Shown: positions 1 through 57,967 of the stretch, in pieces
Layout of the letters: each line of letters opens with the position of its first letter
Numbering within the stretch: position 1 is the stretch's first letter
Source: Antedon mediterranea
Taxonomy: Eukaryota > Animalia > Echinodermata
DNA length: 64,000 nucleotides
NCBI RefSeq assembly: GCF_964355755.1
Contig: NC_092674.1
Span: 434,001-498,000, forward strand
Reading direction: 5' to 3'
Made by a program: the position numbers and the translations under genes
The notes under the pieces: model-generated
Seen by the model: the letters and a program-made list of their open reading frames with translations, nothing else
Told to the model about the DNA's origin: nothing
The model's database searches: none

Positions 1-44
1 TAAATATTTTACAATCTTTTTTTTTAAATAAGTAGAATTTTTAC

Positions 45-818
45 GATATTACATTCTTGACACCCCTCCTTTGAGCTGCTGCATAATTCCAAACAACTGT
101 TTATTTGATAATAGTGATATTACATTCTTGACACCCCTCCTTTGAGCTGCTGCATAATTCCAAACTGTTTATTTGATAATAGTGATATTACATTCTTGAC
201 ACCCCTCCTTTGAGCTGCTGCATAATTCCTAACAACTGTTTATTTGATAATAGTGATATTACATTCTTGACACCCCTCCTTTGAGCTGCTGCATAATTCC
301 TAACAACTGTTTATTTGATAATAGTGATATTACATTCTTGACACCCCTCCTTTGAGCTGCTGCATAATTCCAAACAACTGTTTATTTGATAATAGTGATA
401 TTACATTCTTGACACCCCTCCTTTGAGCTGCTGCATAATTCCTAACAACTGTTTATTTGATAATAGTGATATTACATTCTTGACACCCCTCCTTTGAGCT
501 GCTGCATAATTCCAAACAACTGTTTATTTGATAATAGTGATATTACATTCTTGACACCCCTCCTTTGAGCTGCTGCATAATTCCTAACAACTGTTTATTT
601 GATAATAGTGATATTACATTCTTGACACCCCTCCTTTGAGCTGCTGCATAATTCCAAACAACTGTTTATTTGATAATAGTGATATTACATTCTTGACACC
701 CCTCCTTTGAGCTGCTGCATAATTCCAAACAACTGTTTATTTGATAATAGTGATATTACATTCTTGACACCCCTCCTTTGAGCTGCTGCATAATTCCAAA
801 CTGTTTATTTGATAATAG
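45..818. repeat. Intronic minisatellite, 71-bp unit, ~11 copies
   Basis: Unit gatattacattcttgacacccctcctttgagctgctgcataattcc(a/t)aacaactgtttatttgataatagt; two copies have a 3-bp deletion. Confidence 0.97.
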
Positions 819-1017
819 ATTTTAAAAATTTATATTTCAGTTGTGCTCCCAAAAAACTGTTGTTATTTTGCATTTTGCCTATAAAAGTTATTTTAAATTT
901 GTCCCATTTATGCAGCCAAAAATGAATTAATTTGCTCACAACAAAGAAGAAATAGACAACATTAAATTGTTTATTCAAATTGTTTTCATTTTTGTTTATA
1001 ATATTATTAATTTAAAG

Positions 1018-4000
1018 GTTGGAGATGTGAGGTTGAAATGTTTAGTCGGACTTCAGAATCTCTACCTCGTAAGTGACTTGGCTTTAAAACTTGAACTCTT
1101 CACAAATCGGTTCAAAGACAGAATTGTGGCCATGACACTTGATAAGGAAACTGATGTTGCTGTACAGGCCATCAAGGTTGTCACTCTCATCTTAAAGTAA
1201 GTAACAATACTCAGATTTAAGTAAAGATTTGACACATGATTATGTAATGAGCAGCTAAACATGAATGTCCAATATTAAGTCTTTAAAGATATATTGTCCC
1301 CCTAACATTTTTTTTTTTTACATTTTTTGTTAACTATGCCATTTAAATGTCACATAATAGTTATTCACTTTCACCAAAAAAATGGATTGGAAGAAAAATT
1401 ATTTACCTAAAAAAATGTAATTTAAAGCAAAAAATACTAAAATTGTCTGTCAGACAATGGTTTTTGGTTAAAATTAACCTTTTTTGTTGTCTTACTGCAA
1501 TTGCCTATTTAAAGTATGATTTTATTAATCTTCATTTTTCATGAGGACAATACATCTTTAAGTATTAAGTCATTTCTTAACTAAAACTATAAATTTTAAT
1601 ATTTTTTTAATGTAGGTTTAATGAGGATATCTTATCGGCTGAAGATTGTGAAAATGTTTATCAACTTGTGTACTCAGCAAGTAGAGCTGTAGCACAGGCT
1701 GCAGGAGAGTTTCTCAATGAAAGACTGTTCAAGCGAGATGATACAGAGACAGGAAAATCCAAAAGGGCTGCTAGTAAAAGGCGTAGCGCCAATGCACCAC
1801 TTATCAAGGATCTTGTCCAGTTCTTTATAGAGAGTGAGGTAAGTTCTTGTAATACAGAAGGTCTCATAGTTTAGAGACGAATAAGATTGTTAAAATGAAG
1901 TAGCATTGTTGATATGTTATTGGGCGAGAGTTTAATAGAGTCTTATCAGATAAGGACTATAAACTGTAGGTTCAATGTACACATCTAGCTCATGTGCACT
2001 TTAAAGAACCTACTACATCTTTGGAGATGAGTAGGGGGTTATCCCAGTCTACTAGCTCACACGAGCCACTCTTGTGGACAGACAATCTCTAATTGGCAGC
2101 ACTGACATGACGTGACCCTTGAGGAGAAGTATGTAGTCATCTAAGTCAAAAATACCATGAGCAGTGATCACTGAAATGGTACTATATGAATTATTATTAT
2201 ATATTAATAATCAGTTTTCACACTTTCCGTAGCTTCATGAGCATGCTGCATACCTTGTAGATGCATTATGGGAAGTGAATGAGATGGTGAAAGATTGGGA
2301 TTGTATGACTGAGCTACTTCTAGAGGAACCAGGACGAGGGGAGGAACGTAAGTACACATCTTGATTGTCCTATTTTGTAAGCTTAACCCGACTCGCACTT
2401 TATTGGCAAGATTGATCAAGGTCAACATATAAAGCTCTGTCTACACTATCAAACTCTATGTGACAAAAAATGTGCTGTGCACATGATATGTCATATTTAA
2501 GCATATCACTACCATATTTGGGCACATCACACTTTTTGGTTTTTGTTTATCTCATTAACATAGGAAACAAATTAAAGGTTACAGTAAAATAAATTATTTT
2601 TTACAGCACTTGATGATCGCCAAGAAACAGCGCTGATAGAAATCATGGTTTGCGCTGTCCGACAAGCGGCTCAGGGTCATGCGCCCGTAGGTCGGGGGTC
2701 ATCCAAGAAGATTTTGTCAGCAAAAGAGAAGAAAGCTGTGCAAGACGACAAGATGAAGTTATCAGAGCATTTCATTGTCAAATTGCCCGATCTTCTTTCA
2801 AAAGTATGTTGCATCTTTTTTCTTGAGTCACGTTTACACTTACTTAGTCTGGCACATACCCGAACCTATATGATTAGATTCCTCCATAACTTGCTATCTG
2901 CCATTGTGACAACCAGTTCATCTCTCTGCATACCACCAGTATCCGTCTCTTGTTTTGCAAGCCCATGTTTTGACTGCAATGATTTCTTCTGTGAAGACAG
3001 TGTCCAGCAAATGTCAGTCTTCTTATTGTTTCTGTTTTATTTGTTCATTTACACAGTGCACAGAATATATGAGAACTGTAATCATATTCTATAATCATAA
3101 TCAATATATATATAAATCAATGATGTTGCGTAGCACTGTGTAAATTATATATAAATCATGTAAATTATAGAAACAGTGCTCATATTCGAAACATGATCTC
3201 ATAATCGCGTCGAGCATAGCTCATAGGCGAAAGTTCCGTATTTTTTAGTTGTATGAAAAAACCGTTGCGAATTAAAGTTGGAATTTATTCTGACTTGTTA
3301 AGCCTCCACTGATTGTGAGGCCGTTTGTTGTATGAGAGAATGTATCTGGTGGGTGAAAATCTGTGATAATACCATACATGGCTCTGTGGTCTAGTGGTAT
3401 GATACTCGCCCTGTAAGCGAGAGGTTGCAGGTTCGAATCCCGCCAGAGACATTTTTTCATACAACTAAAAAATACGGAACTTTCGCCAATGAGCTATGCT
3501 CGACGCGATAATAAGATCATGTTCCGAATATGAGCACTGTTTCTATAATTTACATGATTTATATATAAAACAGTGCTCATATTCATATCCAATCGAGTTT
3601 GAACACTACCATGAAAGCCCCAGTGGTCTAATGGTTAGGGCAACTGCATATCAAGCAGACGGTCCGAGTTCAAGTCTCGGTTGGGGCGACTTTTTCTCAT
3701 TCTCACAGATTTTCCTCATCTTTATCGTTTCAAATTAATTAATTAAATTTCAGTATATCACCGGGCGGTTTAGAATTAATGTTCTTTGCCTACTGTGTTT
3801 ATATATATATATATAAATCCAAAGGCAAATTACTGAAAAAATGACAATGCTGTGGGTATCAGTGGCTGGATCTCAATGGAGATACAAAAAAAAAGCAAAA
3901 AGCTAAATCAAAACGATAAAGTAAACAGCCAGAAAAGTTAGCAGAGCTTTCGGGCAACACTAGCCCTTCATCAGTGCAAGTCATATGTGTTTATATATAT

Positions 4001-7000
4001 AAAAGTATCTCTTCGGAGATCCCGCCTCGTGAATAAAAATACTGAAAGATGAGGGCGTATCAATTTGATCTCTGTTGCGCGTGCGTACAACTGAGGACTA
4101 GTGCTGTTCCGCCGTACCACCCGAGAATGTTAAAGAGTCGCTATCCAATCAAGTTTGAACAACCATGAAAGCCCCAGTGGTGTAATGGTTAGGACATCTG
4201 CATATCAAGCAGGCGGTCCGAGTTCGAGTCTCGGTTGGGGCGACTTTTTCTCATTCTCACAGATTTCCTCATCTTCATTGTTCAAATTAATTAATTAAAT
4301 TTCAGTATATCACCGGGCGGTTTCGAATTAATGTTCTTTGCCTACTGTGGTTATATATATATATATATATTATCAAAATATACTGTATAATGATAGCACT
4401 AAAATGATTAATATATTCTTCTTCTTCTCTTGTAGTATGGTATAGATTCCGACAAAGTAGCAAACCTACTGGAGATCCCACAACACTTTGATGTTGAGAT
4501 CTATACAACAAGTAGACTGGAAAAACACTTGGATTCACTCCTACGACAGATGAGAGATATAGTGGAGAAGCATACAGAAACTGAAGTATGTCAATTAATA
4601 TGTGTTCAAAAACAACCTGAGGGGTAGCATCATATGTATAGTAACGGAAGAATGAGATAAACACACGTATATAGTCAATGCAGCATATACAATTTCTTTT
4701 TCATGCACAATTTTGCACACATGACCACCCACTTAATGTCTTACCTGAAAGATACAGTAACAATTTTGCTCAAGTTCTTTTTTGTCTTATGTGGGTTCGT
4801 CCCGCTTTTATTTCATCATCTTTAAAAATATTTAAATACATTGCACATAATAAATAAGATCAACAAATATAAGTCATATTGTATAGTGCCATACAATAGA
4901 ACTAACATATAAGTCATATTGTATAGTGCCATACAATAGAGCTAACATATAAGTCATATTTTATAGTGCCATACAATAGAACTAACATATAAGTCATATT
5001 GTATAGTGCCATACAATAGAACTAACATATAAGTCATATTGTATAGTGCCATACAATAGAAGTAACATATAAGTCATATTGTATAGTGCCATACAATAGA
5101 ACTAACATATTTTTCAACCTATTTTTTGGTACAATTTTTGTAATCTTTAGTTATTTATTTTTCAAATTACCAACATTAGATTATGTTATTACCAACTTAT
5201 TGCAGGTTCTTGATGCTTGTTCTAAGACATATGAGAGCTTGCTTTGTGACCAGTACAACACCACACCTAAGGTTGAGGTCGCTAGAACAACGCTGTTTGA
5301 TAGTCTGGCAGAAAGACTTACCAGAAGCTATGAGAGTTTTGAAGCAGTAAGTGTTTTGAATTTATTTAAGTAATTAGGATTAATGAACCCCTAAGTGCAA
5401 AAAATACTTTATTATTTTAATATGTTATGTAATGTATGTAAGAAATTGTCTTATTTGTTTATGTACTTTCCGTTTTATGCGTAAAGGGTAGCCATAAAAC
5501 GACTTTTGCTTTTTTATTCCCCCCCCCCCCCCCCACCCTTTTTTTTATATTTATTTTAACCATTTATCTCATCAAATAATCTTTGCAATTTGGAAAATAA
5601 ATTGAATCTTGAATATACTAAATTGGATGAGGTGAATTGAGTAATTTACTTTCACTTACAGTAACATTATCATTATGATTCATGTGTATTTTTTTTAGAC
5701 TGACGAACCACATGATAATGTTATCTATGCTTTGTCATCAAGTCTGAAAAGAATTACAACGTTTTATAGGTAACATTATTTACTAATTTGTGAATTTTTT
5801 TAATTTAAGCACTAAGTATTGTAGCTAATGAATGCTTGGTGTAAAATCATCCAGGGTTGTGGCATTACTGTAGTATCACTAATTAGACCTTTAAAATCAT
5901 CCAGGGTTGTGGCATTACTGTAGTATCACTAATTAGACCTTTAAAATCATCCAGGGTTGTGGCATTACTGTAGTATCACTAATTAGACCTTTAAAATCAT
6001 CCAGGGTTGTGGCATTACTGTAGTATCACTAATTAGACCTTTAAAATCATCCAGGGTTGTGGCATTACTGTAGTATCACTAATTAGACCTTTAAAATCAT
6101 CCAGGGTTGTGGCATTACTGTAGTATCACTAATTAGACCTTTAAAATCATCCAGGGTTGTGGTATTACTGTAGTATCACTAATTAGACCTTTAAAATCAT
6201 CCAGGGTTGTGGCATTACTGTAGTATCACTAATTAGACCTTTAAAATCATCCAGGGTTGTGGTATTACTGTAGTATCACTAATTAGACCTTTAAAATCAT
6301 CCAGGGTTGTGGTATTACTGTAGTATCACTAATTAGACCTTTAAAATCATCCAGGGTTGTGGCATTACTGTAGTATCACTAATTAGACCTTTAAAATCAT
6401 CCAGGGTTGTGGCATTACTGTAGTATCACTAATTAGACCTAAAATCATCCAGGGTTGTGGCATTACTGTAGTATCACTAATTAGACCTTTAAAATCATCC
6501 AGGGTTGTGGCATTACTGTAGTATCACTAATTAGACCTTTAAAATCATCCAGGGTTGTGGCATTACTGTAGTATCACTAATTAGACCTTTAAAATCATCC
6601 AGGGTTGTGGCATTACTGTAGTATCACTAATTAGACCTTTAGAATCATCCAGGGTTGTGGCATTACTGTAGTATCACTAATTAGACCTTTAAAATCATCC
6701 AGGGTTGTGGCATTACTGTAGTATCACTAATTAGACCTTTAAAATCATCCAGGGTTGTGGCATTACTGTAGTATCACTAGTCATAGACCTTTAAAATCAT
6801 CCAGGGTTGTGGCATTACTGTAGTATCACTAATTAGACCTTTAAAATCATCCAGGGTTGTGGTATTACTGTAGTATCACTAATTAGACCTTTAAAATCAT
6901 CCAGGGTTGTGGCATTACTGTAGTATCACTAATTAGACCTTTAAAATCATCCAAGGTTGTGGCATTACTGTAGTATCACTAATTAGACCTTTAAAATCAT

Positions 7001-10000
7001 CCAGGGTTGTGGCATTACTGTAGTATCACTAATTAGACCTTTAAAATCATCCAGGGTTGTGGCATTACTGTAGTATCACTAATTAGACCTTTATTGTATT
7101 TTAATTTACTTTCTAAAGTTGTTTTACTTCTAATAATGTAATTGTAATAATTTAATGTTTTTTATACATGTACGTACTGCGCCTATGGACAATCATTGAT
7201 TGGATATATGCTGCTTTATAAATGCTTTTATTATTATTGTAATAATAATTATTTTCGTCTTTGAAGCACTGTTCGTGTACAAGGATAGAAATAAATCAAA
7301 TAATTTTAGAAATTAAAATCCCAATTCCATTTTGTTTGTAGTTCTTATATTATTTTTTTGTATTTGTGTTTAGCTGTCATGACCTCACCGGGTGGAATTT
7401 GTATGAGATGATATTTTTACTGATCAAGCAAGCTCCTAAACGTGGTGACGTACCTGAAGACATTTATGCCTCATCCATTGCGTGTGCACATTATGCTATA
7501 ATGTGGTATGTTAATAAGCTAGAAGACAAGAACCCCGACCAAGTAAGTCCAACATATTTAGTGTGAACTTAATTAATTTTTACATTGTTTCAAGATATGG
7601 AACTACTACAATATATAATATCGTTATTGTCCTAGCTTTCATGCAGGAAGACCACTCATTATTTTTATGTGAATTGTTCCTTTTTATTGTTTGAATGTTT
7701 GCCTGGCGAAATCAAATGGTGATATCAAGTTTACGGTACATCACATATATTTAGTTCTAAGAGAAACTCAACTGTTCTTTTCAACAATTGTTCCTTTATA
7801 TTGTGCTTAATGTATGACAGATGATAAAATCATAATATTTATGATTTTTTTCAGGATGAGATCAACCGACTCAAGAAGCGGGTTACTGAACTGATACACT
7901 TCTGCGCTATTCTTCTTATTGATCGAAATGAGACCATTAAACAGGAGGCTTTCACCACCATTGGTGACCTTCTGGTTGTATTTAGTAAGCAGCTAGGCTC
8001 TGATCTAACTTATAGCTCATTGATCTATGTGGCCAATGAAAACCTTCAACTTAGGATTGCAGATTTCATACAGGAAGAGGTATTTGTAGAAGAAGATGAT
8101 GATGGTAAGCTCTTAAGCATTGTCAACACTATGTGATGTACCCATATATGGACATGATGATGTCATATTGCTACCATATTTGGGAATATCACTACCATAT
8201 TTGGCACATTACTTTTTTTGTCAAACTAGTTTGATAGTGTAGACAGAGCTTAAGATATACAAATTTATTTATTTACTTTAACAACATTAAAAACATCACA
8301 TGAGTGTGCAAGGGAGTGGCAAGAGGTCGGAGGTCACCATACACAAACACTAAAGCATACTAACAAAAACATGAATCAATATATATATAATTTTAAAATT
8401 TTACCCCACAATATCTATGCTATTTTTACATGTGGATTGATGGTTGTAATCTGAATTTGTATTTTACCTGTTGTATTGTTTATGTTTCAAACTTTAAAGT
8501 GGCGGAAATTATCGCTGTTGGTTTTTTTATTTATTTCCACAAGATTTTATGAAGGTATAAAACATGTAACAATAAAATTAAAATAAATATAATGAATAAA
8601 ATATTACTTTCAGATGATGATGACGAAGGTGATGATTCACACAAGATTGAAGTTCTTCATAAACGTAGAAACCTTCTGGCTTCATTCTGTAAACTCATCG
8701 TGTTCAATATCATTGACATGCGAAATGCTGCTGGCATATTTAAACACTACATGAAGGTGTGTACTGTATTGTTTTATATAAACGTAGAAACCTTCTGGCT
8801 TCATTCTGTAAACTCATCGTGTTCAATATCATTGACATGCGAAATGCTGCTGGCATATTTAAACACTATATGAAGATGTGTTGCATCAGTATTGTTTTTA
8901 TTCTCACTCAGACCTTCGGCTAAAGACCCTCTTTTTTACAGAATTTCATTTAGCTTTTAACTTCATAAAACATTCTCAGTTTTTTTAATAGCTCTTTTAA
9001 AAAAGAAAATGTTATTTGCTTATGTATTATGTAAGATGTAATGAAGTGTTTTATATCTAATTTCAGTATTATAATGATTATGGTGACATCATTAAATTAA
9101 CATTGGCCAAATCAAGAGAAATCAACAAAATAAGCTGTGCAAAAACACTAGGACTTAGTCTCAGTCAGGTAATATTTATTTGTTATTGTCTGTTTAAACA
9201 CTAATATGTACCATGAATATTCAAACTATTTACTGTACTATTTTTTTACAAAGTTTTGTTTTTCCTATTTAATTTGATATTAATTATTTATCAGTTATTT
9301 CTTGAAATGAGAGAAATGGAATACGGTCAGGAAGGTAAAGCTGTAAACCAGATGAATGCTATCAAAGAACTGGCACGAAGATTCTCTCTCACATTTGGAC
9401 TTGATCAGATCAAGACAAGAGATGCTGTAGCGGCCTTGCACAAGTAAGTATCAACTCATTAAGTTACTTAGTTAAGTTCCAGTATTTGATTATTTGAAGA
9501 GTCTCTCTACAGGTAACTTTATCGTTTTTGCCAAAATCAATCAGATTCATCACCATCAATATTTGACTATCTGAAATTTTGTTTGCTTTTTTTTATAGAG
9601 AGGGTATAATGTTCAGTTTAACTCCTCTAGAGGACCGCCAAAATCCAGGAGGACCACCCCCTAATATTGGATACCTGGACGTTCTCAGTGAATTTACAAC
9701 CAAGCTTATGAAGCTGGATAAAAAGACGGTGTATGTATAGTAACATCTTGTTTTTATTCAATTTACTATTATTACAAAATATTAGAAACAGTGGATCTTA
9801 AAGTTTATTTATTTCATTATTTCGGCAGACTGGTCTACCTTGACCGCCAGCTCCGTCCAGAAATGTTAGAAAACACAGGTGATGAATGGTCAGCATTGAG
9901 AGCATACCGAAATAGCTTGATGCAGGGTGGGGATACTAGTTCTGATGTAAGTCGTCCACCACGCCCTCCTAAGCGCCCAAAACCTGGTATCAAAAGAAAG

Positions 10001-14420: not shown

Positions 14421-16866
14421 TCATAAGTAAACCTTGTCAGACCCGTGTGAAAATTTGTCGTTTAACTTTGCCGATTCCTTGATGAGACGCTTTTTCTTTG
14501 CATCATCAAAACGATTAACTTGTAGATCGACTTCACGATTAAATGGTCTACGTTCATTAGCTTTCCCTTCTTCTTCCTTAAATAATAAGAAATTTAGTTA
14601 ATTCATATTGTGCTCAATTGAGGGAGTTGAGCTAAATTTACTGAACATTAGTATGTAATGCAATGGTATGAGAGCATATGTAATGTAAACCAACCTGTTT
14701 GCGTTTAAGGTCTTTTTGGTGCATATCAACAAGAGATACACCTCTCTTTTGTGAATTGTATGATGAGATTCTGTCCTCAATTTCTAGATCCCTGTTTGAT
14801 TTCTCTTTTAATTTCTCTTTTGCATCTTGTTTTGTTGTAGAATCAGGATGTGCCCTAGAAGCAGCCTTGTTTTGTACTTCCTGTAGGTCAAAGTTCATAA
14901 TTTATTAAAACAACCCACTCAAAGAATAAAAGAAAAAAATATCTGGTCCGGAACGGAACCTATTAGTTTTTACTTACTATCTTTCTGCGCTCACGGTCTG
15001 CTGGAGTCTCAGTCCAGCCGGATCTATCTTGTTTAGAGGGCGCTGCCTTTTTTCTGAATGTACGTGGTCCAAGACCAAAGTTCTTTCCATAGTCTGGAAG
15101 TTCCATCATCCATGTTTCTCTTTCAACTTTTTCTTGAATCTAAAATATAAGAAATACTTAATGGTGAGACAGACCTTGAGAAAGGAAACGGTATTTTTTA
15201 CTACTGTATTTATTAGGACTAAGGGTCATATAACAATTTAGGTTCATCATGTCTTGTATTGTATTTTATTAGGTTCTACAATATGCAGTGGTTTAGTGTC
15301 AAATTGTAACTGTATTACATTCCACATTGTCTGTGTTATGCGCGATTTGAACGATTTGCGCAATTTGAAATTGCGCAAAAAAATCCTTGCGCAATTTGAA
15401 ATTGCGCAAAGAATTCTTGCGCAATTTAAAATTGCGCAAGGATTTTTTTGCGCAATCAACTTGCGCAATTTCAAATTGCGCAAGAAAATCTTTGCGCAAT
15501 TTTAAATTGCGCTGCACAATTTGTAAATTGCGCAAGATAGTTCTTGCGCAATATGACACCTTTGCGCAATTTGAAAACGAACTGTAAATTTTCCCATACA
15601 TGGCTAGGCTAGGCCTAGGCAGAGGAGTTTAAAATGTAGTATTTTATTATATAAATAAGACCATTTCAATGAAGATAATGTTTAATACTCACTTTTTAAG
15701 TTTTTAATATTAGTTTAAGCTAGGCCATGTAACCTAGTCAGTATCAGTAGTCCAGACCCTAGCTAGGCTAGAGTAGTAGGCTATAGCCGGCCGCCCGCGC
15801 CGCGCCCGCCTGGTGGAACACCACCGCTTCATTTTCCTTCGTCGGTTCTTCGACGGTATGCTAACTTATAACAATATTTGCACTACTAAAATAAGGAAAT
15901 GCGATATTTATCTTTAATTTTGAATCATTCTTAGAAATTACTATAAAAATATGGGTGTGCATGATTTCACAATCTGTCGAAAAACCTTGCGCAATTTGCA
16001 GATTACTTGCGCAATTTAATACGTTGCTTGCGCAATTTGAAACACATGTTTCAATTCAAATTGCGCAAGGATTTTTTTTGCGCAATTTCAAATTGCGCAA
16101 ATCGTTCAAATCGCGCATAACATCTGCATGTCAATAAGTCATGCACACTTACATTTCCAGTCAATTTATTTTTCATGGCTTCTGCTCGTGCTTCGATATC
16201 ACTGGCAACAGAGCTCCTGCTGACCTCCAGACCTGTAGCTGGCATTGGGCCAATAATGTCTTCATCATCCTCACCACTATCTTCACTGTCTGCATTAGTA
16301 GTTGCTATAAATCCAGGTGGAAGAGCAGGACCATATGACATATCACTAGATGGCACAGTATTAACAGGTTCTGATGTTTTTATAATTGATGTAGAAGACG
16401 TGATTTCATCCTGCCGTGTACCTTCAATTTCATTGGGAGTTGATTTTCTTATGACATCTGGCAAGACTGGTCCAATAGTGTCTTCATCATTAGTGTTGTC
16501 ATCCTCAAATCTTTCGGGTGAATCTACCAAGGATGAAAACAAATTCTTAATTGGTGTGACATTAACAGATGAGGAATGGGCAAAAACAAGCACAGGTATA
16601 TAGTGTATTTGTAGTAGGACTAGGGCTAGGCCTAACTAGCTAAAACAGCTGCTATATTCAGACTGAATAAATAATAATAACCCGTACTTCTTTGCTAGGC
16701 TTCCCAGCTACTAGGGGAGCTACTAATAACAGTACATAGCATAAGCCTACTTACTAACTAGCTAGGCGCGGCGCCGGCTTGCTTCATAGTAATATTATTA
16801 TTTACCATTACAGACACCACCACCGAAACCAGGTGGTAGTGAAGGCCCGATTATTTGTTCCGACAT
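14421..16866 (-). CDS. GPALPP1: GPALPP motifs-containing protein 1, 5 coding exons
   Basis: Phase-consistent exons 16866-16806, 16523-16153, 15139-14978, 14880-14695, 14576-14421. Motifs IGPSLPPGF, YGPALPPGF, IIGPMP, RETWMMELP, WTETPADRER, RRPFNREVDL. Confidence 0.93.
15332..16126. mobile_element. MITE/foldback element with long TTGCGCAA-rich inverted repeats, in GPALPP1 intron 2
   Basis: tgttatgcgcgatttgaacgatttgcgcaatttgaaattgcgc at the left end is mirrored by gcgcaatttcaaattgcgcaaatcgttcaaatcgcgcataaca at the right end. Confidence 0.88.
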
Positions 16867-17402: not shown

Positions 17403-19081
17403 ATGTTCAAAAGTATTCAGTTTGCAAAAAACGCCATATTCACATTTCCTAAACAGACGGTGTTGATACCAGTCGGTCAGAAACGGGTATGTTTTCAGAC
17501 TGTGTTTATGTAGGCCGCACATCGCGAAGGGTGTGCTGTGTATTGAGACTAGATAGACAGTAAGATCAGTGAGTGGATTAACTTTTAGTCTCCATCCAGG
17601 GAGTTGTTTACAACTCGCCCTGGTCCATCCATCCAGGCAATGTTTATATATAGTGACTCATTTGAGTCAGCAGTAAAATAGGTGTTTTTATGGCAATTTT
17701 ATTTAAATCACATTTAAGTTAGTAAATAGTAAGTAATAGAAAATATCAATAAAAGATCTTGATTTTTGTTTATATTTTTGTAAATCAATTTAGGTCTAGC
17801 ACTGCAGCTGCCTCTATTGTCATTGTATTGTCTATATAATAATTAGTATACTAATTATTAGGCCTCTATGATAACATACTAATAGTATAATATAATACTA
17901 TTATAGTAAAAAGTAAATATATTTTTTAAATAAATAATAAAATTATAAAATACGGTTGCTTTAAATACGATACAATAAGAAGATTTTAATTTATGAAAAA
18001 GTTAGTACATGATTGATACTGTAGTTAATTTAATATTTCTGGTTGTACTCAATTTCTGATGCATTCAGACTGTAAGGATAAAGTTTCTTTGAGTTCCTGG
18101 TACAAAGTGTAGTTGCTGGTACTACAGTCTGTAACCATTATTATTACCATGATTGCATATTATGCCCTCCATTTTCAATAATTTATCAAATATGTACATT
18201 TATAAAAACTGATTTAATCAATTTTAATAAATTTTCCCCTTCAGCTTGCTGTTTGTTATGCATCCACAAAAGCTGATGATAAAATTACAAATACCAGGAT
18301 TGATGATAATCTAGTGCTGCACACGACGTCCTCGTCACAACCGGGGACACCGTTAGTTCTCCTGTACAGTTGGTTGGCTGCTAAACAGCGCCATCTTGAT
18401 CGATTCTCTAAATTGTATCTTAACAAAGGCTGTGATGTCGTATCTGTTCAAATAAAACCGCTGCAGTTGATACAACCTGCAAGTGGTTCCCAAAAAATTG
18501 CGGAAAAGTTGGTAGATTTTGTGCAAGGATCTGAACAAAACCAACGACCACTTCTGGTGCATACCTTTTCAGTTGGAGCATATCTACACAGTGAAACGCT
18601 ATCAAAGATGTCTGAACACGACACGAAGAACAAGACTGTGATAGTTGACAGGATCAAAGGTCAAGTATTTGACAGTGCAGTTGATTTGGATAAAGTACCG
18701 TATGGTACATCGAGGGCGCTTTTCAACAACCGTGTAGCTCAGAATACTGTTGAGGCTATGTTGAATGGTTTCTTCAGAATGACTCACAAACACACAATGT
18801 TGCATTATCAGAATGCACAAAAAGTGTTCTACTCTAACCCTGCTTCTACTCCTTTGCTTTTCTTTTATTCTAAAGTTGACCCAGTTGCTCCCGCCAGCAC
18901 CATCGATAGCTGCATCAACACTCTTAAACATGACCATGGCAAAGAAGTCTACAGTAAAGTCTTTGACAGCTCATCACATGTCAGTCACATGTATAAATAT
19001 CAAAGCGAATACATTGGAGCTCTAGAATCGTTCCTACACAGGTTAGGCTGCTTCAATGCAGATCAAACAACATCATCATAA
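17403..19081 (+). CDS. TMEM53-like (DUF829) alpha/beta-hydrolase-fold protein, 2 exons, ~306 aa
   Basis: Exon 17403-17486 (donor gtatgt) joins in phase 0 to 18245-19081. Motifs PLVLLYSWLAAKQRHL, LLVHTFSVG, GQVFDS, LFFYSKVDPV, SSHVSHM. Confidence 0.82.
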
Positions 19082-20206: not shown

Positions 20207-21410
20207 ATACTATTTATGATGCGTACCTCAATGTTCAGGTGCTAGTCTCTGAATTCAGTCTGCATCATAATACTATTTATGATGAGTACCTCAATGTTCA
20301 GGTGCTAGTCTCTGAATTCAGTCTGCATCATAATACTATTTATGATGAGTACCTCAATGTTCAGGTGCTAGTCTCTGAATTCAGTCTGCATCATAATACT
20401 ATTTATGATGGTGAGTACCTCAATGTTCAGGTGCTAGTCTCTGAATTCAGTCTGCATCATAATACTATTTAGATGAGTACCTCAATGTTCAGGTGCTAGT
20501 CTCTGAATTCAGTCTGCATCATAATACTATTTATGATGAGTATCTCAATGTTCAGGTGCTAGTCTCTGAATTCAGTCTGCATCATAATACTATTTATGAT
20601 GAGTACCTCAATGTTCAGGTGCTAGTCTCTGAATTCAGTCTGCATCATAATACTATTTATGATGAGTACCTCAATGTTCAGGTGCTAGTCTCTGAATTCA
20701 GTCTGCATCATAATACTATTTATGATGAGTACCTCAATGTTCAGGTGCTAGTCTCTGAATTCAGTCTGCATCATAATACTATTTATGGTGAGTACCTCAA
20801 TGTTCAGGTGCTAGTCTCTGAATTCAGTCTGCATCATAATACTATTTATGATGAGTACCTCAATGTTCAGGTGCTAGTCTCTGAATTCAGTCTGCATCAT
20901 AATACTATTTATGATGAGTACCTCAATGTTCAGGTGCTAGTCTCTGAATTCAGTCTGCATCATAATACTATTTATGATGAGTACCTCAATGTTCAGGTGC
21001 TAGTCTCTGAATTCAGTCTGCATCATAATACTATTTATGATGAGTACCTCAATGTTCAGGTGCTAGTCTCTGAATTCAGTCTGCATCATAATACTATTTA
21101 TGATGAGTACCTCAATGTTCAGGTGCTAGTCTCTGAATTCAGTCTGCATCATAATACTATTTATGATGAGTACCTCAATGTTCAGGTGCTAGTCTCTGAA
21201 TTCAGTCTGCATCATAATACTATTTATGATGAGTACCTCAATGTTCAGGTGCTAGTCTCTGAATTCAGTCTGCATCATAATACTATTTATGATGAGTACC
21301 TCAATGTTCAGGTGCTAGTCTCTGAATTCAGTCTGCATCATAATACTATTTATGATGAGTAGGCCTACCTCAATGTTCAGGTGCTAGTCTCTGAATTCAG
21401 TCTGCATCAT
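20207..21410. repeat. Minisatellite, 60-bp unit, ~20 copies
   Basis: Unit atactatttatgatgagtacctcaatgttcaggtgctagtctctgaattcagtctgcatcata. Confidence 0.98.
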
Positions 21411-21999
21411 ACAGAATAATTACCGTACTGTATATAATTTACACTTATGATACATAAACACTAGTACATAGAATTATTATTTAAATTACCACCAATTGGT
21501 CTTACCACCAGACACATGTTTTTGAAATAAAAATATTTTATTATTTCTACAAAGTACGAATCTATTCTTCCACCATTTTTTAATTCATTTTTTAATTGGT
21601 TATTTTGTAAACCAGACAATAAAATGATATAAAATAACATTTTTTTTTATATTGTTAATGTTAAATTACACATTTTGTACGATATTGTTGCTAATGTTAA
21701 ATTACACATTTTCATAGACTTTTCGAGTGTTACTCTGACAATGACTTGTAACATAATGACGCCCTCAACTTCTGCACAGACGATAACAAGTCTTGTTATC
21801 TATAACAAAACATTAATACAATTTTAATAACTCTACTCTCCTGATAGTGTTTTATGAATGATGTACTTATTAAGGTGTACAGATGATGATGACTTAATTC
21901 ATTACGTTACATTAAGGCATTTCGTTATACTGAATTAGATTGACAAGCTTCATATACTTTTGAAAATAATGAAAGGTAGAAACGCTTTAAAAAAAATTA

Positions 22000-23883: not shown

Positions 23884-33552
<9,669 letters not shown>

Positions 33553-36500
33553 GCAGCTACTAATTTTATTTTGATAATAAGGGGGTTGCCATTTGGTGGG
33601 TTGCCATTTGGTGGGTTGTCATTTGTGTACAGATATGTACGTGTGATTATTGATTATTTTTCCTTTGTAAAAGTTGCGAACCGAATGACCTTTATAGATC
33701 GTTACAAAGTAACTCAACAAAATATTATTGTTTTGTAAACCCACAAACGAAATCCGTTTTACTGTTGACTGAGCACAGAAAGGCACCTGCAGATGTATTG
33801 ATCTAAGGATGTTGCATCACGTTCTTCTGTAATGTCAATAAAACTTCTGACGAAATTCCAGATATTCTCAGTATTATTAGTTATTTATTTTAAACCCATC
33901 TTAGCATAAGACTATCACTGAATTGGTATAGTTTTTTTCGTACAATATTATTGTATTGGAAAGAAAAGTTTAAACGAATCAGCAATTTAGAAAGAATATT
34001 ATTTCAGGTATCGGCCAAACTGAAACATGGATAATAAAAGAAATAACATTTTGTATTATGAACACCAGGCTAGTGATCTGGAGGTTGTGGGTTCGAGAAT
34101 TACTTGCATATTTTTTCGCAAGTATTTTCTCAATGTACTTAGTATAAAGTAAACCTTACGTCAGAATAGGGCAAAACATCTGACCAATATTATTATTTAT
34201 TATACAGTATATTACAAATAGTATTATTATTTTTCTATCAAATGGTACAACAGATGTACTGGACCAAAGCCAATGTATTGCATCTTAAAGTTGTTCAGTA
34301 TTTAAATTTTCTAAATGTGTTTTTACATTTCACAGCACAACATATATAATATATTTTTTGATATTGGAGTCAGTTAACAATTTATATTGAATTTTAAATT
34401 TGTGTAAACCTTCTTTGTTTTGAAAATTAATGAATAATGAATAACCTATATTATATGTACGTAAAAATATAACATACATTTGTCATCCCCTCTTGGTTTC
34501 AATGCAATTGACCCGTCTTCCTGTATACGTTCTTTCTATAATATGTAGATACTAGAAAACAATACCATGACTTACTTTTCTATAGAGTATTAATTAACCT
34601 TAAATTTAAGAACAAAATATCGTTTTTGTTTATTGGTCTTTCACAGCTCTTAATCAATTTTTGTATGGTTTATTTTTATCCAAGGCTTATTAAACTTATA
34701 TAGTTGTTGTACATTCTTTTTAATTTCTAATTTAATAGAATTATTATAAGTGAACCAAGATTTTATGAAGAGTATACTTTTTAAATTGACATTTAGTCTT
34801 TATTAAGCTTTGTACTGTAGTTTGATGCATAATATTATTGTTTAGTAAACATGATGATTATTTTGTATAGGATTTTAAAGAAGGTATTTCCCTAAACCTA
34901 TTTAGGTACTTAATAAACTTGTGTGCTTAAGAGATAATTGCCAATTACTACCATTTTGATAATCCATTTTATTTATGAAAGTATCAGTTTAAATTCAGTA
35001 AACTGTTAATATGCCTACAGTCGGAATCAATTTATTTACTGAAGTACAGTAGTATTATGACAGTAATATTGTAGATGTTATATTAGATAAATTCACAAAC
35101 AAACATGAATTTCACTGATTATAAATGTTTTTTTTGGTTTGCATTTTATTGTATTTGGTGGTGATTTTTTCAAAAAAAGTACCAAAAAAAATTCAAATAT
35201 TATGCCATAATATGGCTATATATGCGCATGCTTTGTATCATCTTATACAGCCATATTAACTAGTTTTGTCTATAGTACAAGGATATTTTTTCGAAAAATA
35301 CTCAAAATATCGACTTTTTAAAATTCCATTATTATGCGATAATATGGCTATATATGTGCATATATTGCTTTGTATCATCTTATAGAGCCATATTAACCAG
35401 TTTTGTCAAAAAATAAAAAGGTTGAACTTTAGTCAATTTTGGAAAAAATCCCTGTAAAAATGACCATTTTTCGACCCTTTCATTTTTTGATATAATTAGT
35501 TATTATAGCATAATAAACATGCGCAGAGACGAATATTAGTTTCTGCGCATGTCAATTATGGTATATTAACCATTTGAAAATTTTTTTATAATTAGTTACT
35601 ATAGCATAATAAACATGCGCAGAGACGAATATTAGTTTCTGCGCATGTCAATTATGCTATAGTAACCAGTTTTATCAATTTTTTGACATAAATGGTTACT
35701 ATAGCATAATAAACATGCGCAGAGACGAATATTAGGTTCCGCGCATGTCAATTATACTATACTAACCAGTTTTATCGAAAAATAAAAAGGTCGAAAATTT
35801 GTCATTTTTGGAAAAAATCCCTGTACTATATATAGTACAGAGAAAATTTCGAAAAATGACAATTTTTCGACCCTTTCATTTTTAGATATAATTAGTTACT
35901 ATAGCATAATAAACATGCGCAGAGTCGAATATTTGGTTCTCCGCATGTCAATTATAGTATAATAACCAGTTTTATCGAAAAATAAAAAGGTCGAAAATTG
36001 GTCATTTTTTGAAAAAATTCCTGTATTATAGTACAGGGAAAATTTCGAAAAATGACCATTTTTCGACCCTTTCATTTTTTGATATAATTAGTTACTATAG
36101 CATAATAAATATGCGCAGAGATGATATTAGGTTCTGCGCATGTCAATTATGCTATATTAACCATTTGAAAAAATTTTTATATATAATTAGTTACTATAGC
36201 ATAATAAACATGCGCAGAGACGAATATTGGGTTCTGCGCATGTCAATTATACTATAGTAACCAGTTTTATCGAAAATAAAAAGGTCGAAAATTGGTCATA
36301 TTTTGAAAAAATCCCTGTACTATAATACAGGGAAAATTTCCAAAAATGACCATTTTTTGATATTAGTTACTATAGCATAATAAACATGCACAGAGACGAA
36401 TATTAGTTTCTGCGCATGTCAATTATGGTATATTAACCATTTGAAAATTTTTTTATATATAAATAGTTACTACAGCATAATAAACATGCGCAGAGTCGAA

Positions 36501-37638
36501 TATTGGGTTCTGCGCATGTCAATTATACTATAGTAACCAGTTTTATCGAAAAATAAAAAGGTCGAAAATTGGTCATATTTTGAAAAAATCCCTGTACTAT
36601 AGTACAGGGAAAATTTCCAAAAATGACCATTTTTCGACCCTTTTATTTTTTGATATAATTAGTTACTATAGCATAATAAACATGCGCAGAGACGAATATT
36701 AGGTTCTGCGCATGTCAATTATGCTATAGTAACCATTTTTTAAAAATTTTTATATATAATTAGTTACTATAGCATAATAAACATGCGCAGAGACGAATAT
36801 TAGTTTCTGCGCATGTCAATTATGCTATAGTAACCAGTTTTATCAATTTTTTGACATAAATGGTTACTATAGCATAATAAACATGCGCAGAGACGAATAT
36901 TAGGTTCCGCCTATGTTAATTATACTATACTAACCAGTTTTATCGAAAAATAAAAAGGTCGAAAATTTGTCATTTTTGGAAAAAATCCCTGTACTATAGT
37001 ACAGAGAAAATTTCGAAAAATGACAATTTTTCGACCCTTTCATTTTTAGATATAATTAGTTACTATAGCATAATAAACATGCGCAGAGTCGAATATTTGG
37101 TTCTGCGCATGTCAATTATAGTATAATAACCAGTTTTATCGAAAAATAAAAAGGTCGAAAATTGGTCATTTTTTGAAAAAATTCCTGTACTATAGTACAG
37201 GGAAAATTTCGAAAAATGACCATTTTTCGACCCTTTCATTTTTTGATATAATTAGTTACTATAGCATAATAAATATGCGCAGAGATGATATTAGGTTCTG
37301 CGCATGTCAATTATGCTATAGTAACCAGTTTTATCTATTTTTTGACATAAATGGTTACTATAGCAAAATAAACATGCGCAGAGTCTTAAAATTCAATTAT
37401 TTTGTGATAATATGGCTATATATGCACATATTGCTTTGTATCATCTTATAGAGCCATATTAACCAGTTTTGTCGAAAAATAAAAAGGTTGAAATTTAGCC
37501 AATTTTGGAAAAAATTCCTGCACTATAGTATAGGGATTTGGCGCGCCAGGGATTTTCCCGAAAAATGCCCAAAATATAGACTTTTTAAAATTCAATTATT
37601 TTGCGATAATATGGCTATATATGCACATATATTGCTTT

Positions 37639-46500: not shown

Positions 46501-49203
46501 AAATTCTCCCCTCCAAGTCTGTTAATAAAACAAGTATCGTTAGGATTTGGAATCAAAACCAATAGCCCAATGGCCGTGTTCACCAATCACACTTACTGTA
46601 AGTGATATATTTCCCTTAAATATCAAGGGTAAGTATTTCCCTTAGCCCAAGTGTGAATACGGCCAAATTGTCCAGTGAGTGGTAAGTCTCTCATTCTTGT
46701 GAATCACATCTTGGGTTGCTGTAAATTATTTCACACATTTTCCTGTATATATTGATAATAATTGATAATAATTGATTTTTCAGTTCACTTGAGGATATAA
46801 TAATAATTATATAAAGTGGTTTACCACTCCTTTGTAACAATTGAATACTATAATAACAACAAAATGGTAATAAAATTATTAATGGGATGAGTGACAATGA
46901 GTTCTTTGTTTGTCACTTTTGAATAGTATTAGTAAGTATTACATATTGTAACCCTTCGTATCTATTTATAAACTAAAGTTTTATGCTACTTATGCAACAC
47001 TTATACACAGAGTATAACGATTGTGTTTGGTACTGTCTACCTAATCCCTCTCCATCCAACTATTTTAAGTGAATGCATACTGATAACAGATAAGAATAAT
47101 ATACGTTCCAGTCCGATGAAACAGTGTTATGTGCCCTTAGAAGTGTACCGATTACAAACAAGAAGAGGAATTTGGGCATTCAGATGATTCTAGTATTTTT
47201 GGGTCTTTGTGAGTGAGGTCGAAGTGAGACACATTTTTACTTCTATCTATTATGTAGGCTCATGATAATATATGTTAGTTTGATTCATACTTATATACTT
47301 TATAATCGTATGTTTTATTATCAAAATAAATGTACAAGAACATGAATATGGCATGACAAATAAAAACAACACAATAATGGGCGTCATCAGGAATTTGATG
47401 GCGCCATTTGAAATAAAATTTCTTGGAATTGCCTTGATCATCTCTAGTTATTACAGATAAGCCAAAATGTTTGTTTTTTCACATATATAACAGTAAGCCG
47501 AATCAAAAACCCAGACTTAACTTGAGAATTGACTCATTACTGTGTGTGTCTACTTACCCAAAAACAAATCTTCCAATTTCCATAACGGTGTAACTATTTA
47601 ACGACGCACCAAGAGCAAAAATACACTTTAATAAAAAGAAAATTTAAATATATTTGAAGAGATGAAATTAACCTGAACTTTGTTTACAATTTATACTGTA
47701 AATAACTACTACAAAAATTATCCTTATTTGAACAATAACACACACAATAACAGTAAAATTATTAATTTCATTTCAGGTCAGGAAAAACAATTAGTGACCT
47801 AGGTCACTATGACTCAGTAATTCTTTTATACAAGATAAAAATGTTCAGACTTACTTGTCCTATAAGCACGAACATGCCAAAAACAATCGTACCAAATCTA
47901 TAAAAAAAAACTTGAGTAATTGAGTAAGTTCAAATATGTACCTACAGTATAAGTTATAACTTATAGGTCCATGGTTCAAATATATTTGTGAGGGAACACA
48001 AGTAGCCATAAATCTTAATTTAGAGTATAGTTTTGTATATCATTATTATATATAAATCCAAAGGCAAAATACTGAAAAAATGACAATGCTGTGGGTATCA
48101 GTGGCTGGATCTCAATGGAGATAAAAAAAAAAGCGAAAAACTAAATCAGAACGATAAAGTAAAACGGGCAACACTAGCCCTTCACCAGTGCAAGTGAGGG
48201 AATTTGATATATATATTCATTTAGTTTTTTGGCTACAGTATATTTGGAAAAATGCAATTGGCTACTGTATGCTAATGAGAATGTTTCTTGGTGGTATATT
48301 GCGTCATAGCAGATGTACCTGGGTACAATTGGGTGGGGCAACAAGCATAGTATTTTTACATAAAGATTAAGACATTGTAGTTGTTGTTGTTTTTCAATTC
48401 AGCAAACAAAATTTAACCAACCGGATTCCAAACACTCTGTCAATGAGAAATCCACCAAAAAAACACAATATCACATTTGGCCAGGAATACAGTGAATACA
48501 GAAGCATGTATTGACTTGAATTCACTTCCATCGCCTGCAAATAAATGTTCAATAAAAACATTACAATCAATAAGTTTGTGTTGTTTTTTTATTTTAAATT
48601 TATTTTGTGATTGATTGTAAAATTGTTATGTTATTTATGTATTGTTACATTATGTTATGTATTTATTAGGAGAGGCGACAGTGACAGATTTATTTGAGTC
48701 TCTATACTTGGATAACTAGAAGTTTAAAAACTATTTTTTATTACTTACCGATTTGATTTCTGTTTGTAGAGCACCTGGGTTGTCATAGCAGAAATAGCTA
48801 CCTACAAAATTGAATGATAAACTTTATTTATGTGGTTTGGACACAAGAATTTAAGACTACCAAACAGCATGTTTAATTTAGATAAAATTAATTATATTAA
48901 TTAATTAATATAAAATTAGGACAGGGCCAAGTGGCATTTATTATAGGCCTACTAATAGGTAGCTAGGCCTAGCCCTAGGTATAGGCTACACAACCTGCGG
49001 GAGAAAACACGAACAAGTCGGGCGGGCTTACCGAAACTCAGGAAGCATATCAAAATCAAAACAAGAAATCGATGCAAAGTTTGCCTTGGATCACAAGCAG
49101 CAGTTGCTCCACAGCCTGTCAACTTAACATCGTCTTCATATTCATCTATTACTCTATCTGATCTGCCACTTAACAGTGGTTTTGTTTCATCGGTTTCATT
49201 CAT
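40510..49203 (-). CDS. MFSD1: Lysosomal MFS transporter MFSD1, ~15 coding exons
   Basis: Peptides ETKPLL (dileucine-type signal), HRFLVLILICFLSFG, YFCYDNPGAL, LYSWPNVILCFFGGFLIDRVFGIR, GGENLAVAQNTYAVSWFKNKELNMVFGLQLS, YYVAVFPFIGLG, MQSIQNLGLAVV, NRYLSRIGAK; GT-AG boundaries; last exon LPDHFNPHVKSLSRHGVLQ*. Confidence 0.93.
40625..40860 (-). mobile_element. tRNA-derived SINE with Deu/Nin-like core in the last MFSD1 intron
   Basis: Minus strand starts gtggccgagcggttcaagg (A box) and contains gtgcactttaaaaaacccag. Confidence 0.65.
41943..42056. mobile_element. Harbinger-like MITE, partial copy
   Basis: agctcagtctacactatcaaact plus the family's internal sequence. Confidence 0.75.
43849..45710. 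repeat. Minisatellite, 47-bp unit, ~26 copies, abutting an MFSD1 acceptor and split by a MITE
   Basis: Unit gaacaagactgg(t/c)gtgatggaagattaaggaatcagttagaaaggaa. Confidence 0.98.
44353..44978. mobile_element. Non-autonomous DNA transposon with TTAA target duplication (Kolobok-like)
   Basis: TTAA|AGACCCCTTCCCTGC ... GTAGGGAATGGGGCT|TTAA: imperfect TIRs with AG..CT termini, inserted in the TTAA of one repeat unit. Confidence 0.85.
46161..46305. mobile_element. Harbinger-like MITE, most complete copy (145 bp)
   Basis: TIRs agctctgtctacactatcaaa / tttgatagtatagacagagct flanked by taa and tta (TWA-type); five copies in this window. Confidence 0.85.
48053..48196 (-). mobile_element. Module C copy with degraded hammerhead
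   Basis: Matches 3815-3980 after a TA run; the GAAAGCTC segment is deleted and the core reads CTGGTGA. Confidence 0.85.
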
Positions 49204-57749: not shown

Positions 57750-57967
57750 TCACTTTGCTACACATTTTACGAGCGCGTGTGAACATGGGGTATGTGCACA
57801 TGACCTAATGAACTTTGCTACACATTTTACGAGCGCGTGTGAACATGGGGTATGTGCACATGACCTAATGAACTTTGCTACACATTTTACGAGCGCCTGT
57901 GAACATGAGGTATGTGCACATGACACGAGCGCGTGTGAACATGGGGTATGTGCACATGACCTAATGC
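57750..57967. repeat. Minisatellite, 60-bp unit, ~3.5 copies
   Basis: Unit actttgctacacattttacgagcgcgtgtgaacatggggtatgtgcacatgacctaatga. Confidence 0.93.

What the first reader, a model, noticed from the sequence alone, without database searches (positions are those of the whole stretch)
3941..3978. Minimal hammerhead ribozyme with a loopless palindromic helix III
Seen on the minus strand: CUGAUGA core, GGGC/GCCC stem II, then GAAAGCUC and a 3-bp stem I. Helix III is reduced to AGCU, which cannot fold back on itself. Known: Penelope-type minimal hammerheads cleave as dimers through such palindromes. Inference: cleavage would need tandem or trans copies. This intact copy is antisense to STAG. 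The two copies lying sense to a host gene (PRKX 27465, MFSD1 48165) are both broken, consistent with selection against pre-mRNA cleavage, though three copies is a very small sample.
Basis: partly seen in the sequence, partly recalled or inferred. Interest (0 to 1): 0.7.

Follow-up and report, generated by a model that had tools for sequence, protein, structure and literature searches.

The report
Minimal hammerhead heading a Penelope-type repeat
This is an ordinary find: a complete miniature hammerhead ribozyme sequence of a known type heads a short, very abundant repeat that is likely the end-piece of a Penelope-type jumping gene, and a lone copy like this one is predicted not to cut itself.

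Summary
The motif is real. Minus strand 3977-3941 carries every sequence feature of the published minimal type I hammerhead of Penelope-like elements (PLEs), including the AGCU palindrome that cannot fold alone. A full descriptor with palindrome hit 1 of 100 shuffled windows. The motif heads a 166-bp repeat (3816-3981) that ends in (TA)n and sits between 16-bp direct repeats in a STAG intron. Sequencing-run contigs put the family at roughly 7,500-9,000 dispersed copies (rough). Many copies begin just ahead of the ribozyme, and this copy matches the majority sequence. Best reading: a solo end-piece (pLTR) or non-autonomous derivative of a PLE, likely pasted from uncut RNA. No PLE reading frame was found near the three copies, no genome was held, and cleavage is untested. 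The scan reported this kind of motif before (54 findings, at least 18 genomes). One odd side note: two of three copies abut a tRNA-carrying repeat with PLE-like insertion patterns.

The parts
3941..3977 (-). Minimal type I hammerhead motif (stem I 3 bp, CUGAUGA, unpaired A, stem II 4 bp, GAAA, AGCU palindrome, C17)
   Evidence: Sequence; descriptor scan; fold
3945..3948 (-). Helix III reduced to palindrome A15.1-G15.2-C16.2-U16.1; predicted to pair only with a second copy
   Evidence: Monomer helix disallowed, double-hammerhead structure -19.5 kcal/mol
3944..3944 (-). C17; predicted cut is 3' of this base (between 3944 and 3943)
   Evidence: Standard hammerhead numbering (established knowledge); cleavage not tested
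3816..3981 (-). Repeat X, 166 bp: hammerhead at its 5' end, U-rich spacer, small hairpin, 3' end at (TA)n; likely a PLE pLTR piece
   Evidence: Shared with 48047-48195 end to end; 12,841 contigs of run X1 laid on 3822-3990; loose ends pile behind 3981
3794..3809 (.). Left copy of a 16-bp direct repeat ending in (TA)5; likely target-site duplication
   Evidence: the uninterrupted junction of the neighbour repeat is seen near 27620-27640
3986..4001 (.). Right copy of the 16-bp direct repeat; 4 extra bases (3982-3985) lie between it and X
3832..3893 (-). 3' subunit of X that is tandemly repeated in other copies (partial tandem)
   Evidence: Joint 3893 to 3832, 11 contigs in X1, 2 in X5, 1 in X11, plus similar rows in table 5c
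3867..3885 (-). Small hairpin in X, similar to a hairpin at 4005-4022 of the tRNA-bearing repeat Y
   Evidence: Alignment score reached by 3 of 300 shuffles; motif list
2804..4435 (+). Intron of the STAG/SCC3 cohesin gene; the hammerhead is antisense to it
   Evidence: PF24571 profile 32-96 then 97-149; GT/AG ends
27464..27570 (+). 5'-truncated copy of X (equivalent to 3967-3862), no CUGAUGA, fused to repeat Y; sense in the kinase intron
48047..48195 (-). Full-length but broken copy of X (A6G, 24-nt deletion); sense in the MFS gene intron
4002..4370 (+). Neighbour repeat Y: leader, tRNA-Asp(ATC)-like gene 4171-4242, tail, (TA)n; no hammerhead
3586..3815 (+). Partial upstream copy of Y with tRNA-Asp(ATC)-like gene 3617-3688; X sits in the (TA)n junction between the two Y copies
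   Evidence: 93.6% identity over 233 bp

Best explanation
The motif is a complete minimal type I hammerhead sequence at the front of a 166-base dispersed repeat, which is likely the end-piece (pseudo-LTR) or a non-autonomous derivative of a Penelope-like retrotransposon, was likely pasted into an AT-rich site from uncut RNA, and is predicted to be inactive as a lone copy. Shown: the motif, the repeat and its ends, the 16-bp flanking duplication, the high abundance, no PLE reading frame nearby. Inferred: (1) an RNA starting a few bases ahead of the ribozyme is made from master copies; (2) a PLE RT-endonuclease from elsewhere in the genome nicks (TA)n or AT-rich DNA and copies the uncut RNA from a point about 150 nt behind stem II; (3) cutting happens only when two AGCU palindromes pair, in tandem transcripts or in trans, probably with protein help; (4) this intronic copy is antisense and is a passenger without effect on STAG.
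For: All four family marks listed by Cervera and De la Pena that can be read from one sequence or are catalytic are met: core boxes, unpaired base after A9, G10.1-C11.1, palindromic 15.2-16.2. Descriptor with palindrome: 1 of 100 shuffles. Abundance: 12,841 contigs of run X1 laid on 169 bases; summed depth 2.1-2.5 million over the ribozyme against 266-317 for the 8 listed single-locus contigs, about 7,500-9,000 copies (the tool warns that depth is no copy number). The repeat is also held by organisms B and C and, thinly, D (52 contigs) and E (3 contigs). No majority change is listed in 3941-3977, so this copy is the family's usual form. Flanks diverge within about 10 bases beyond 3981: loose ends in 89, 77 and 5 contigs of X1, X6, X10 with consensus agreement 0.49-0.63. 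The 3' end lies at (TA)n in both full-length window copies. 3' partial tandems exist. PLE traits in print: hammerhead near the 3' end, (TA)n targets, partial tandems (PMC8557442); uncut RNA is the main insertion substrate and copying starts 111-118 nt behind the ORF start, which is the start of stem II (PMC11167929).
Against: No RT or GIY-YIG frame among 67 of the frames scanned, 64 of them in or beside the three host introns; no genome was held, so the autonomous partner was never seen and PLE membership is inferred. The 3' part of X has no ORF start, unlike the Poseidon element. The ribozyme is not more conserved among copies than its flank (2 to 4 variable places of 37 against 16 to 18 of 119, Fisher p 0.16-0.79). 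The catalytic dimer (-19.5) is not favoured over two monomers (-20.2) or the best cofold (-24.2). A clean 16-bp duplication is seen at one copy of three. Rfam gives no hammerhead match.
Confidence: 0.75

Rival explanations
1. X is a monomer of a non-LTR retrozyme: tandem arrays are transcribed, cut by paired hammerheads, circularised and re-inserted by a PLE enzyme.
For: Size near the 150-450 bp range, low GC and a duplication longer than 4 bp fit PMC7229834. A 2026 preprint derives retrozymes from PLE pLTRs and counts monomers. One full-unit go-back joint, 3988 to 3837, is listed.
Against: That joint has single-locus depth (313 against millions) and no abundant full-unit joint is among the 15 of 35 joints and 12 of 113 rows of table 5c shown. 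Copies start ahead of the ribozyme at a fixed place, not at the cut site or at scattered phases. The ribozyme is minimal, not canonical. The whole unit folds no better than shuffles (z 0.39).
Confidence: 0.12
2. One reading: intact copies lying sense in introns cut host pre-mRNA and are purged, so sense copies survive only when broken.
For: The pattern is as described: 1 of 1 antisense copy intact, 2 of 2 sense copies broken. 5 of 11 lesions fall in the ribozyme, 23% of the length (p=0.08). Retrozymes are depleted from Xenopus introns (preprint passage; orientation not examined there).
Against: p=0.06-0.125 by chance. Monomers did not cleave in vitro and a PLE ribozyme needed protein. The kinase-intron copy looks truncated at insertion. 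Antisense bias of intronic elements is known without ribozymes (start of abstract of PMC3517506).
Confidence: 0.15
3. X travels with, or targets, the tRNA-bearing repeat Y as part of a composite element moved by PLE enzymes.
For: 2 of 3 X copies abut Y with the same relative orientation. Joints 3981 to 3610 (X6) and 3917 to 4223 (X1, X6) link X and Y elsewhere. X and Y share a hairpin (3 of 300 shuffles). Y forms partial tandems at (TA)n.
Against: Most loose ends behind 3981 lie on nothing in 3100-4450, so most X copies do not continue into Y. A shared taste for (TA)n explains the locus at 3816-3981. The hairpin test was one of three comparisons. Y holds no hammerhead.
Confidence: 0.1
4. A chance motif, or a host-domesticated intronic ribozyme that regulates STAG like the amniote RECK hammerhead.
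For: The loose pattern is chance level and the 38-mer folds no better than shuffles (31 of 200).
Against: It is the majority form of a family with thousands of copies, it is antisense to STAG, and it lacks helix III. The RECK-type motifs are conserved in orthologous introns (passage of PMC6155905).
Confidence: 0.03

Closest known systems
[quoted passage not shown]
   Same: Core boxes, unpaired base after A9, G10.1-C11.1, palindromic 15.2-16.2 with no loop 3, short helix I, thousands of mostly single dispersed copies.
   Different: Helix II is 4 bp (7-8 bp in Schistosoma, 6 bp in Drosophila virilis) and helix I 3 bp. No linked ORF was seen here.
Short-stem-III PLE hammerheads that cleave as dimers (Lunse et al., PMC5785218; not held, known only from review passages in PMC6765202)
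   Same: Palindromic, extremely short stem III in a type I fold.
   Different: Consensus not compared; activity not tested here.
Poseidon PLE of Anolis carolinensis (Frangieh et al. 2024, PMC11167929; parts 1-2 of 4 read)
   Same: AT-rich targets; 3' end of insertions 110-150 nt behind stem II; copies carry the whole, uncut ribozyme.
   Different: There the ORF starts at stem II; here the frame from the core AUG stops after three codons and the 3' part is non-coding.
Neptune and Hydra clade PLEs (Craig et al. 2021, PMC8557442; passages read)
   Same: Hammerhead near the 3' end, (TA)n insertion, partial tandems; Hydra is reported from echinoderms.
   Different: Clade cannot be assigned without the protein.
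Metazoan non-LTR retrozymes (Cervera and de la Pena 2020, PMC7229834, part 2 of 6 and passages; Li et al. preprint 10.64898/2026.07.22.740005, part 1 of 5 and passages)
   Same: Short protein-free type I hammerhead repeat, low GC, duplication longer than 4 bp.
   Different: No abundant full-unit tandems seen; minimal rather than canonical ribozyme; fixed 5' start ahead of the ribozyme.

Membership tests
Minimal type I hammerhead (min-HHR) | CUGANGA and GAAA boxes, U16.1 and H17 | tested here: met
   CUGAUGA 3974-3968, GAAA 3951-3948, UC 3945-3944
Minimal type I hammerhead (min-HHR) | G10.1-C11.1 pair and one unpaired base between 9 and 10.1 | tested here: met
   G3966-C3952 and A3967; features
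Minimal type I hammerhead (min-HHR) | Palindromic 15.2-16.2, no foldable helix III in the monomer | tested here: met
   AGCU; monomer helix disallowed
Minimal type I hammerhead (min-HHR) | Large genomic family with compensatory changes | tested here: inconclusive
   Large family met. No compensatory change listed in organism A. A 2-contig loose end in organism D suggests a wobble palindrome and H17=A, too thin to count.
Minimal type I hammerhead (min-HHR) | Self-cleavage at H17 as a dimer | not testable with these tools
   Only contigs were available; dimer energy -19.5 against -20.2 for two monomers
Penelope-like element pLTR or non-autonomous derivative | Sense hammerhead near the element's 3' end | tested here: met
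   Stem II starts 150 nt before the (TA)n end at 3816; element polarity is inferred from the ribozyme
Penelope-like element pLTR or non-autonomous derivative | Insertion in (TA)n or AT-rich DNA | tested here: met
   Both full-length window copies end in TA repeats
Penelope-like element pLTR or non-autonomous derivative | Partial tandem or inverted structures | tested here: met
   3' subunit tandem 3893 to 3832 in 11 contigs of X1; no inverted X copy seen
Penelope-like element pLTR or non-autonomous derivative | Linked or cognate RT plus GIY-YIG frame | tested here: inconclusive
   None in or beside the three host introns; no genome held. The RT at 38569-40029 shares no DNA with the STAG intron.
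Penelope-like element pLTR or non-autonomous derivative | Optional 30-40 bp 3' tail | tested here: inconclusive
   The kinase-intron copy stops 46 nt short of the 3' end but is fused to Y; no clear second end
Non-LTR retrozyme | Tandem full units, at least two intact hammerheads | tested here: not met
   Single unit at all three window loci; only a single-locus-depth full-unit joint among those shown
Non-LTR retrozyme | Expressed as linear and circular monomers | not testable with these tools
   No raw RNA reads were available
Domesticated intronic hammerhead (RECK type) | Low-copy, sense-strand motif with full helices | tested here: not met
   Antisense, high-copy, no helix III

The most novel reading that the evidence does not exclude
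Penelope-type enzymes in this animal mobilise tRNA-gene-carrying units (Y with a tRNA-Asp-like gene, Z with a tRNA-Thr-like gene), a PLE counterpart of SINEs, and the hammerhead unit X fuses with or homes into them through a shared terminal hairpin.
Probability: 0.12. Interest if true: 0.55.

Novelty: new member of a known kind. Interest (0 to 1): 0.17.

Why it matters
As a ribozyme it matters little: thousands of such motifs per animal genome are in print (PMC4209133), and this scan has noted the kind in at least 18 genomes. Its value is as a test set. One young, uniform family of several thousand copies would allow a clean genome-wide test of whether minimal hammerheads ever cut host pre-mRNA, with the sharper prediction that pairs of intact sense copies in one transcript, not single copies, should be depleted. 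My searches (10-20 papers listed each) listed no such orientation test. If the tRNA-carrying neighbours prove PLE-driven, that would be a new kind of non-autonomous element; one search listed only LTR-type examples (Helenus, Ajax).

Tried and rejected
Rfam scan at E<=10: no hammerhead family among 65 matches. Whole genome: none held. Exact 31-base ribozyme pattern in viral contigs: 0. Flank pattern in metagenome contigs: 1 locus, L001, a 27-base match inside an unrelated coding gene, rejected as chance. Phage collection, blastn of X: no match. Earlier scan notes by sequence: none for X or Y. Expression: no RNA holder listed. Run X5 is only guessed to be RNA; it shows lower shares than X1 at 15 of 15 minor variants compared (G12A 0.5% against 9.5%), but it is another sample at far lower depth where rare variants drop out, so I do not use it as evidence. 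The depth slope across X looked like 5' truncation but is explained by the tandem 3' subunit and edge effects. A second, degenerate hammerhead on the + strand near 4092-4115: rejected, 104 of 500 shuffles score as well; a relaxed scan of 3100-4400 found only the known motif and one poor match. X+ against Y+ homology: 12 of 300 shuffles, not significant. Rod-like fold of the whole unit that hides the core: z 0.39, rejected as evidence. An initiator-like start at 3981: seen by eye against a recalled consensus, untested. Lunse et al. could not be read. No paper joining hammerheads and crinoids was among the 15 listed. Host lineage (feather star) comes from earlier scan notes and was not tested.

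Full report
Observation. The minus strand at 3977-3941 reads, in order, stem I 5' (GCA), CUGAUGA, one unpaired A, stem II (GGGC, 7-nt loop, GCCC), GAA, the palindrome AGCU (15.1-16.1), C17 and stem I 3' (UGC). The minimum-energy fold forms stems I and II, though no more stably than shuffles (31 of 200). The two core boxes alone are chance level (2 hits, 1.09 expected). A descriptor with both stems and the NUH site gives 1 hit in the window; 5 of 100 shuffles reach 1 hit, and 1 of 100 with a palindromic helix III. I wrote that descriptor after seeing the motif. Rfam has no hammerhead among 65 matches at E<=10.

Host genes. PF24571 (SCC3/STAG) runs to profile position 96 in the exon ending at 2803 and resumes at 97 in the exon starting at 4436, on +, so the motif is antisense in intron 2804-4435. 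A PKA-family kinase lies on + with an intron at 26909-29856, and an MFS transporter lies on -. The copy at 27464-27570 covers only 3967-3862 of the repeat and has three further private substitutions, two in the ribozyme remnant. The copy at 48047-48195 is full length with A6G and a 24-nt deletion. The names PRKX and MFSD1 were not tested. The host is an animal; earlier scan notes call it likely a feather star, which I did not test.

The carrier repeat. The motif is the front of a 166-bp unit X (3816-3981) whose other end is (TA)n. X sits in the junction between two copies of a neighbour repeat Y and is flanked by a 16-bp direct repeat (3794-3809, 3986-4001). The uninterrupted Y junction is present in the kinase intron, so the repeat is best read as a target-site duplication. 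The other two copies show no clean duplication. No genome was held, so I used public runs: 24 runs of 10 studies hold part of 2500-4700, and I laid 6 of them. In run X1, 12,841 contigs lie on 3822-3990. Summed depth over the ribozyme is 2.1-2.5 million, against 266-317 for the 8 listed single-locus contigs, which gives about 7,500-9,000 copies. The tool warns that depth is no copy number, so this is an order of magnitude. X is abundant in organism B, present in C and thin in D and E (52 and 3 contigs). Loose ends pile up behind 3981 (89, 77, 5 contigs in X1, X6, X10) with consensus agreement of only 0.49-0.63 over 30 letters. The first 7-10 letters agree between runs, so many copies start within about 10 bases ahead of stem I and then enter unrelated flanks. 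The 3' subunit 3832-3893 is tandemly repeated in some copies (11 contigs in X1). A full-unit tandem joint appears once, at single-locus depth, among the 15 of 35 joints shown.

Variation. X1 has 28 places with a change of 2% or more, 26 of them shown. Two lie in the ribozyme: G12A at a CpG (9.5%) and G15.2A (2.4%); the two hidden ones could add to that. No majority change is listed there, so the window copy is the usual form. The ribozyme is not better conserved than its flank (Fisher p 0.16-0.79 after dropping 8 rows at an A run and an indel). That is expected for young copies that decay after insertion, but it gives no independent sign of function.

How it likely works. A monomer cannot close helix III. 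Two copies can pair AGCU with AGCU and swap stem I strands; this structure scores -19.5 kcal/mol, slightly worse than two monomers (-20.2) and worse than the best cofold (-24.2). That fits reports that single minimal hammerheads do not cleave and dimers cleave weakly (PMC4209133) and that the Anolis Poseidon ribozyme cleaves only with the element's protein, while uncut RNA is the main insertion substrate (PMC11167929). The geometry of X matches a PLE 3' end: sense ribozyme 150 nt before an end in (TA)n, with partial tandems (PMC8557442). I therefore read X as a solo pLTR piece or non-autonomous PLE derivative copied from uncut RNA that starts just ahead of the ribozyme (confidence 0.75). The partner enzyme was not seen: of 71 frames of 40 residues or more in or beside the three introns I scanned 65, leaving out 6 that overlap host exons, plus 2 from elsewhere; hits were two kinase exons, one MFS exon and a distant RT at 38569-40029.

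The selection idea. The pattern is real but weak. Orientation alone has p=0.125; with assumed broken fractions of 0.3-0.5 the pattern has p=0.06-0.125. Against it, one lesion would suffice, lone motifs should not cut, and antisense bias of intronic elements occurs without ribozymes (start of abstract, PMC3517506). A preprint reports retrozyme depletion from Xenopus introns but the words orientation and antisense do not occur in its main text. A sharper test is depletion of genes with two intact sense copies.

Neighbours. Y is a roughly 370-bp unit with a leader, a tRNA-Asp(ATC)-like gene and a tail, bounded by (TA)n and found in partial tandems. Z holds a tRNA-Thr(TGT)-like gene (3380-3451) and an inverted copy of its tail (3145-3261 / 3452-3568, 96.6%); other copies show inversion joints at other places (3224/3456, 3333/3481; one contig each). 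Partial tandems, inverted truncated copies and (TA)n ends are the insertion patterns described for PLEs. Two of three X copies abut Y in the same relative orientation, and X and Y share a small hairpin (3 of 300 shuffles). Neither Y nor Z holds a hammerhead. PLE-driven tRNA-carrying units are the most novel reading left open (probability 0.12); MITE-like or SINE-like origins and a shared taste for (TA)n are the plainer alternatives.

Papers seen. PMC4209133: parts 1-2 of 4. PMC11167929: parts 1-2 of 4. PMC7229834: part 2 of 6 and passages. Preprint 10.64898/2026.07.22.740005: part 1 of 5 and passages; its supplements are closed and may bear on intronic counts. PMC8557442, PMC6765202, PMC6155905, PMC10886601: passages only. 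PMC3517506: search listing only. Lunse et al. (PMC5785218): not held. No supplements were opened; alignments in those of PMC4209133 and PMC8557442 may hold closer relatives of this motif. Hammerhead numbering is established knowledge; G12 as general base is from a passage.

Verdict. A real motif and a new member of a well-described kind, noted by this scan in at least 18 genomes (54 findings). Interest 0.17.

Noticed in passing
window 4002-4370, 3586-3815 and 27570-27798: High-copy repeat Y: about 170-nt leader, tRNA-Asp-like gene with the unusual anticodon ATC and 7/7 acceptor pairs, T-run, tail, (TA)n at both ends, partial tandems. The leader is shared between copies, so it is not a plain SINE.
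   Followed up: partly
window 3128-3585: High-copy repeat Z: tRNA-Thr(TGT)-like gene 3380-3451 between inverted repeats of about 130 bp that end in TA runs; inversion joints differ between copies.
   Followed up: partly
window 3867-3885 (-) and 4005-4022 (+): X and Y share a short hairpin with different four-base loops; Y's loop is UUCG on one strand.
   Followed up: partly
window 38569-40029 (+): Uninterrupted 486-residue reverse transcriptase frame (RVT_1, E 2.8e-29), a non-LTR retrotransposon piece; clade not determined.
   Followed up: partly
window 18218-19078 (+): Intronless DUF829 frame of 287 residues (E 3.1e-34).
   Followed up: no
window 35150-37640: Array of palindromic units of about 100-200 bp in alternating orientation.
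   Followed up: no
window 15348-15592 and 15979-16129: Short palindromic repeats built on TTGCGCAA that give spurious miRNA-family matches.
   Followed up: no
window 21-940, 4830-5110, 5840-7190, 20350-21500, 43850-45800, 57750-57970, 60070-60270, 62420-62850: Many homogeneous intronic minisatellites with units of 21-71 bp.
   Followed up: no
run X11 (organism D), loose end behind 3923: Two contigs suggest a relative whose helix III is a wobble palindrome with A at position 17; too thin to count.
   Followed up: partly
L001 110-5008: Three tandem glycine-rich paralogous frames of 524-552 residues in an AT-rich contig; unrelated to the finding.
   Followed up: no
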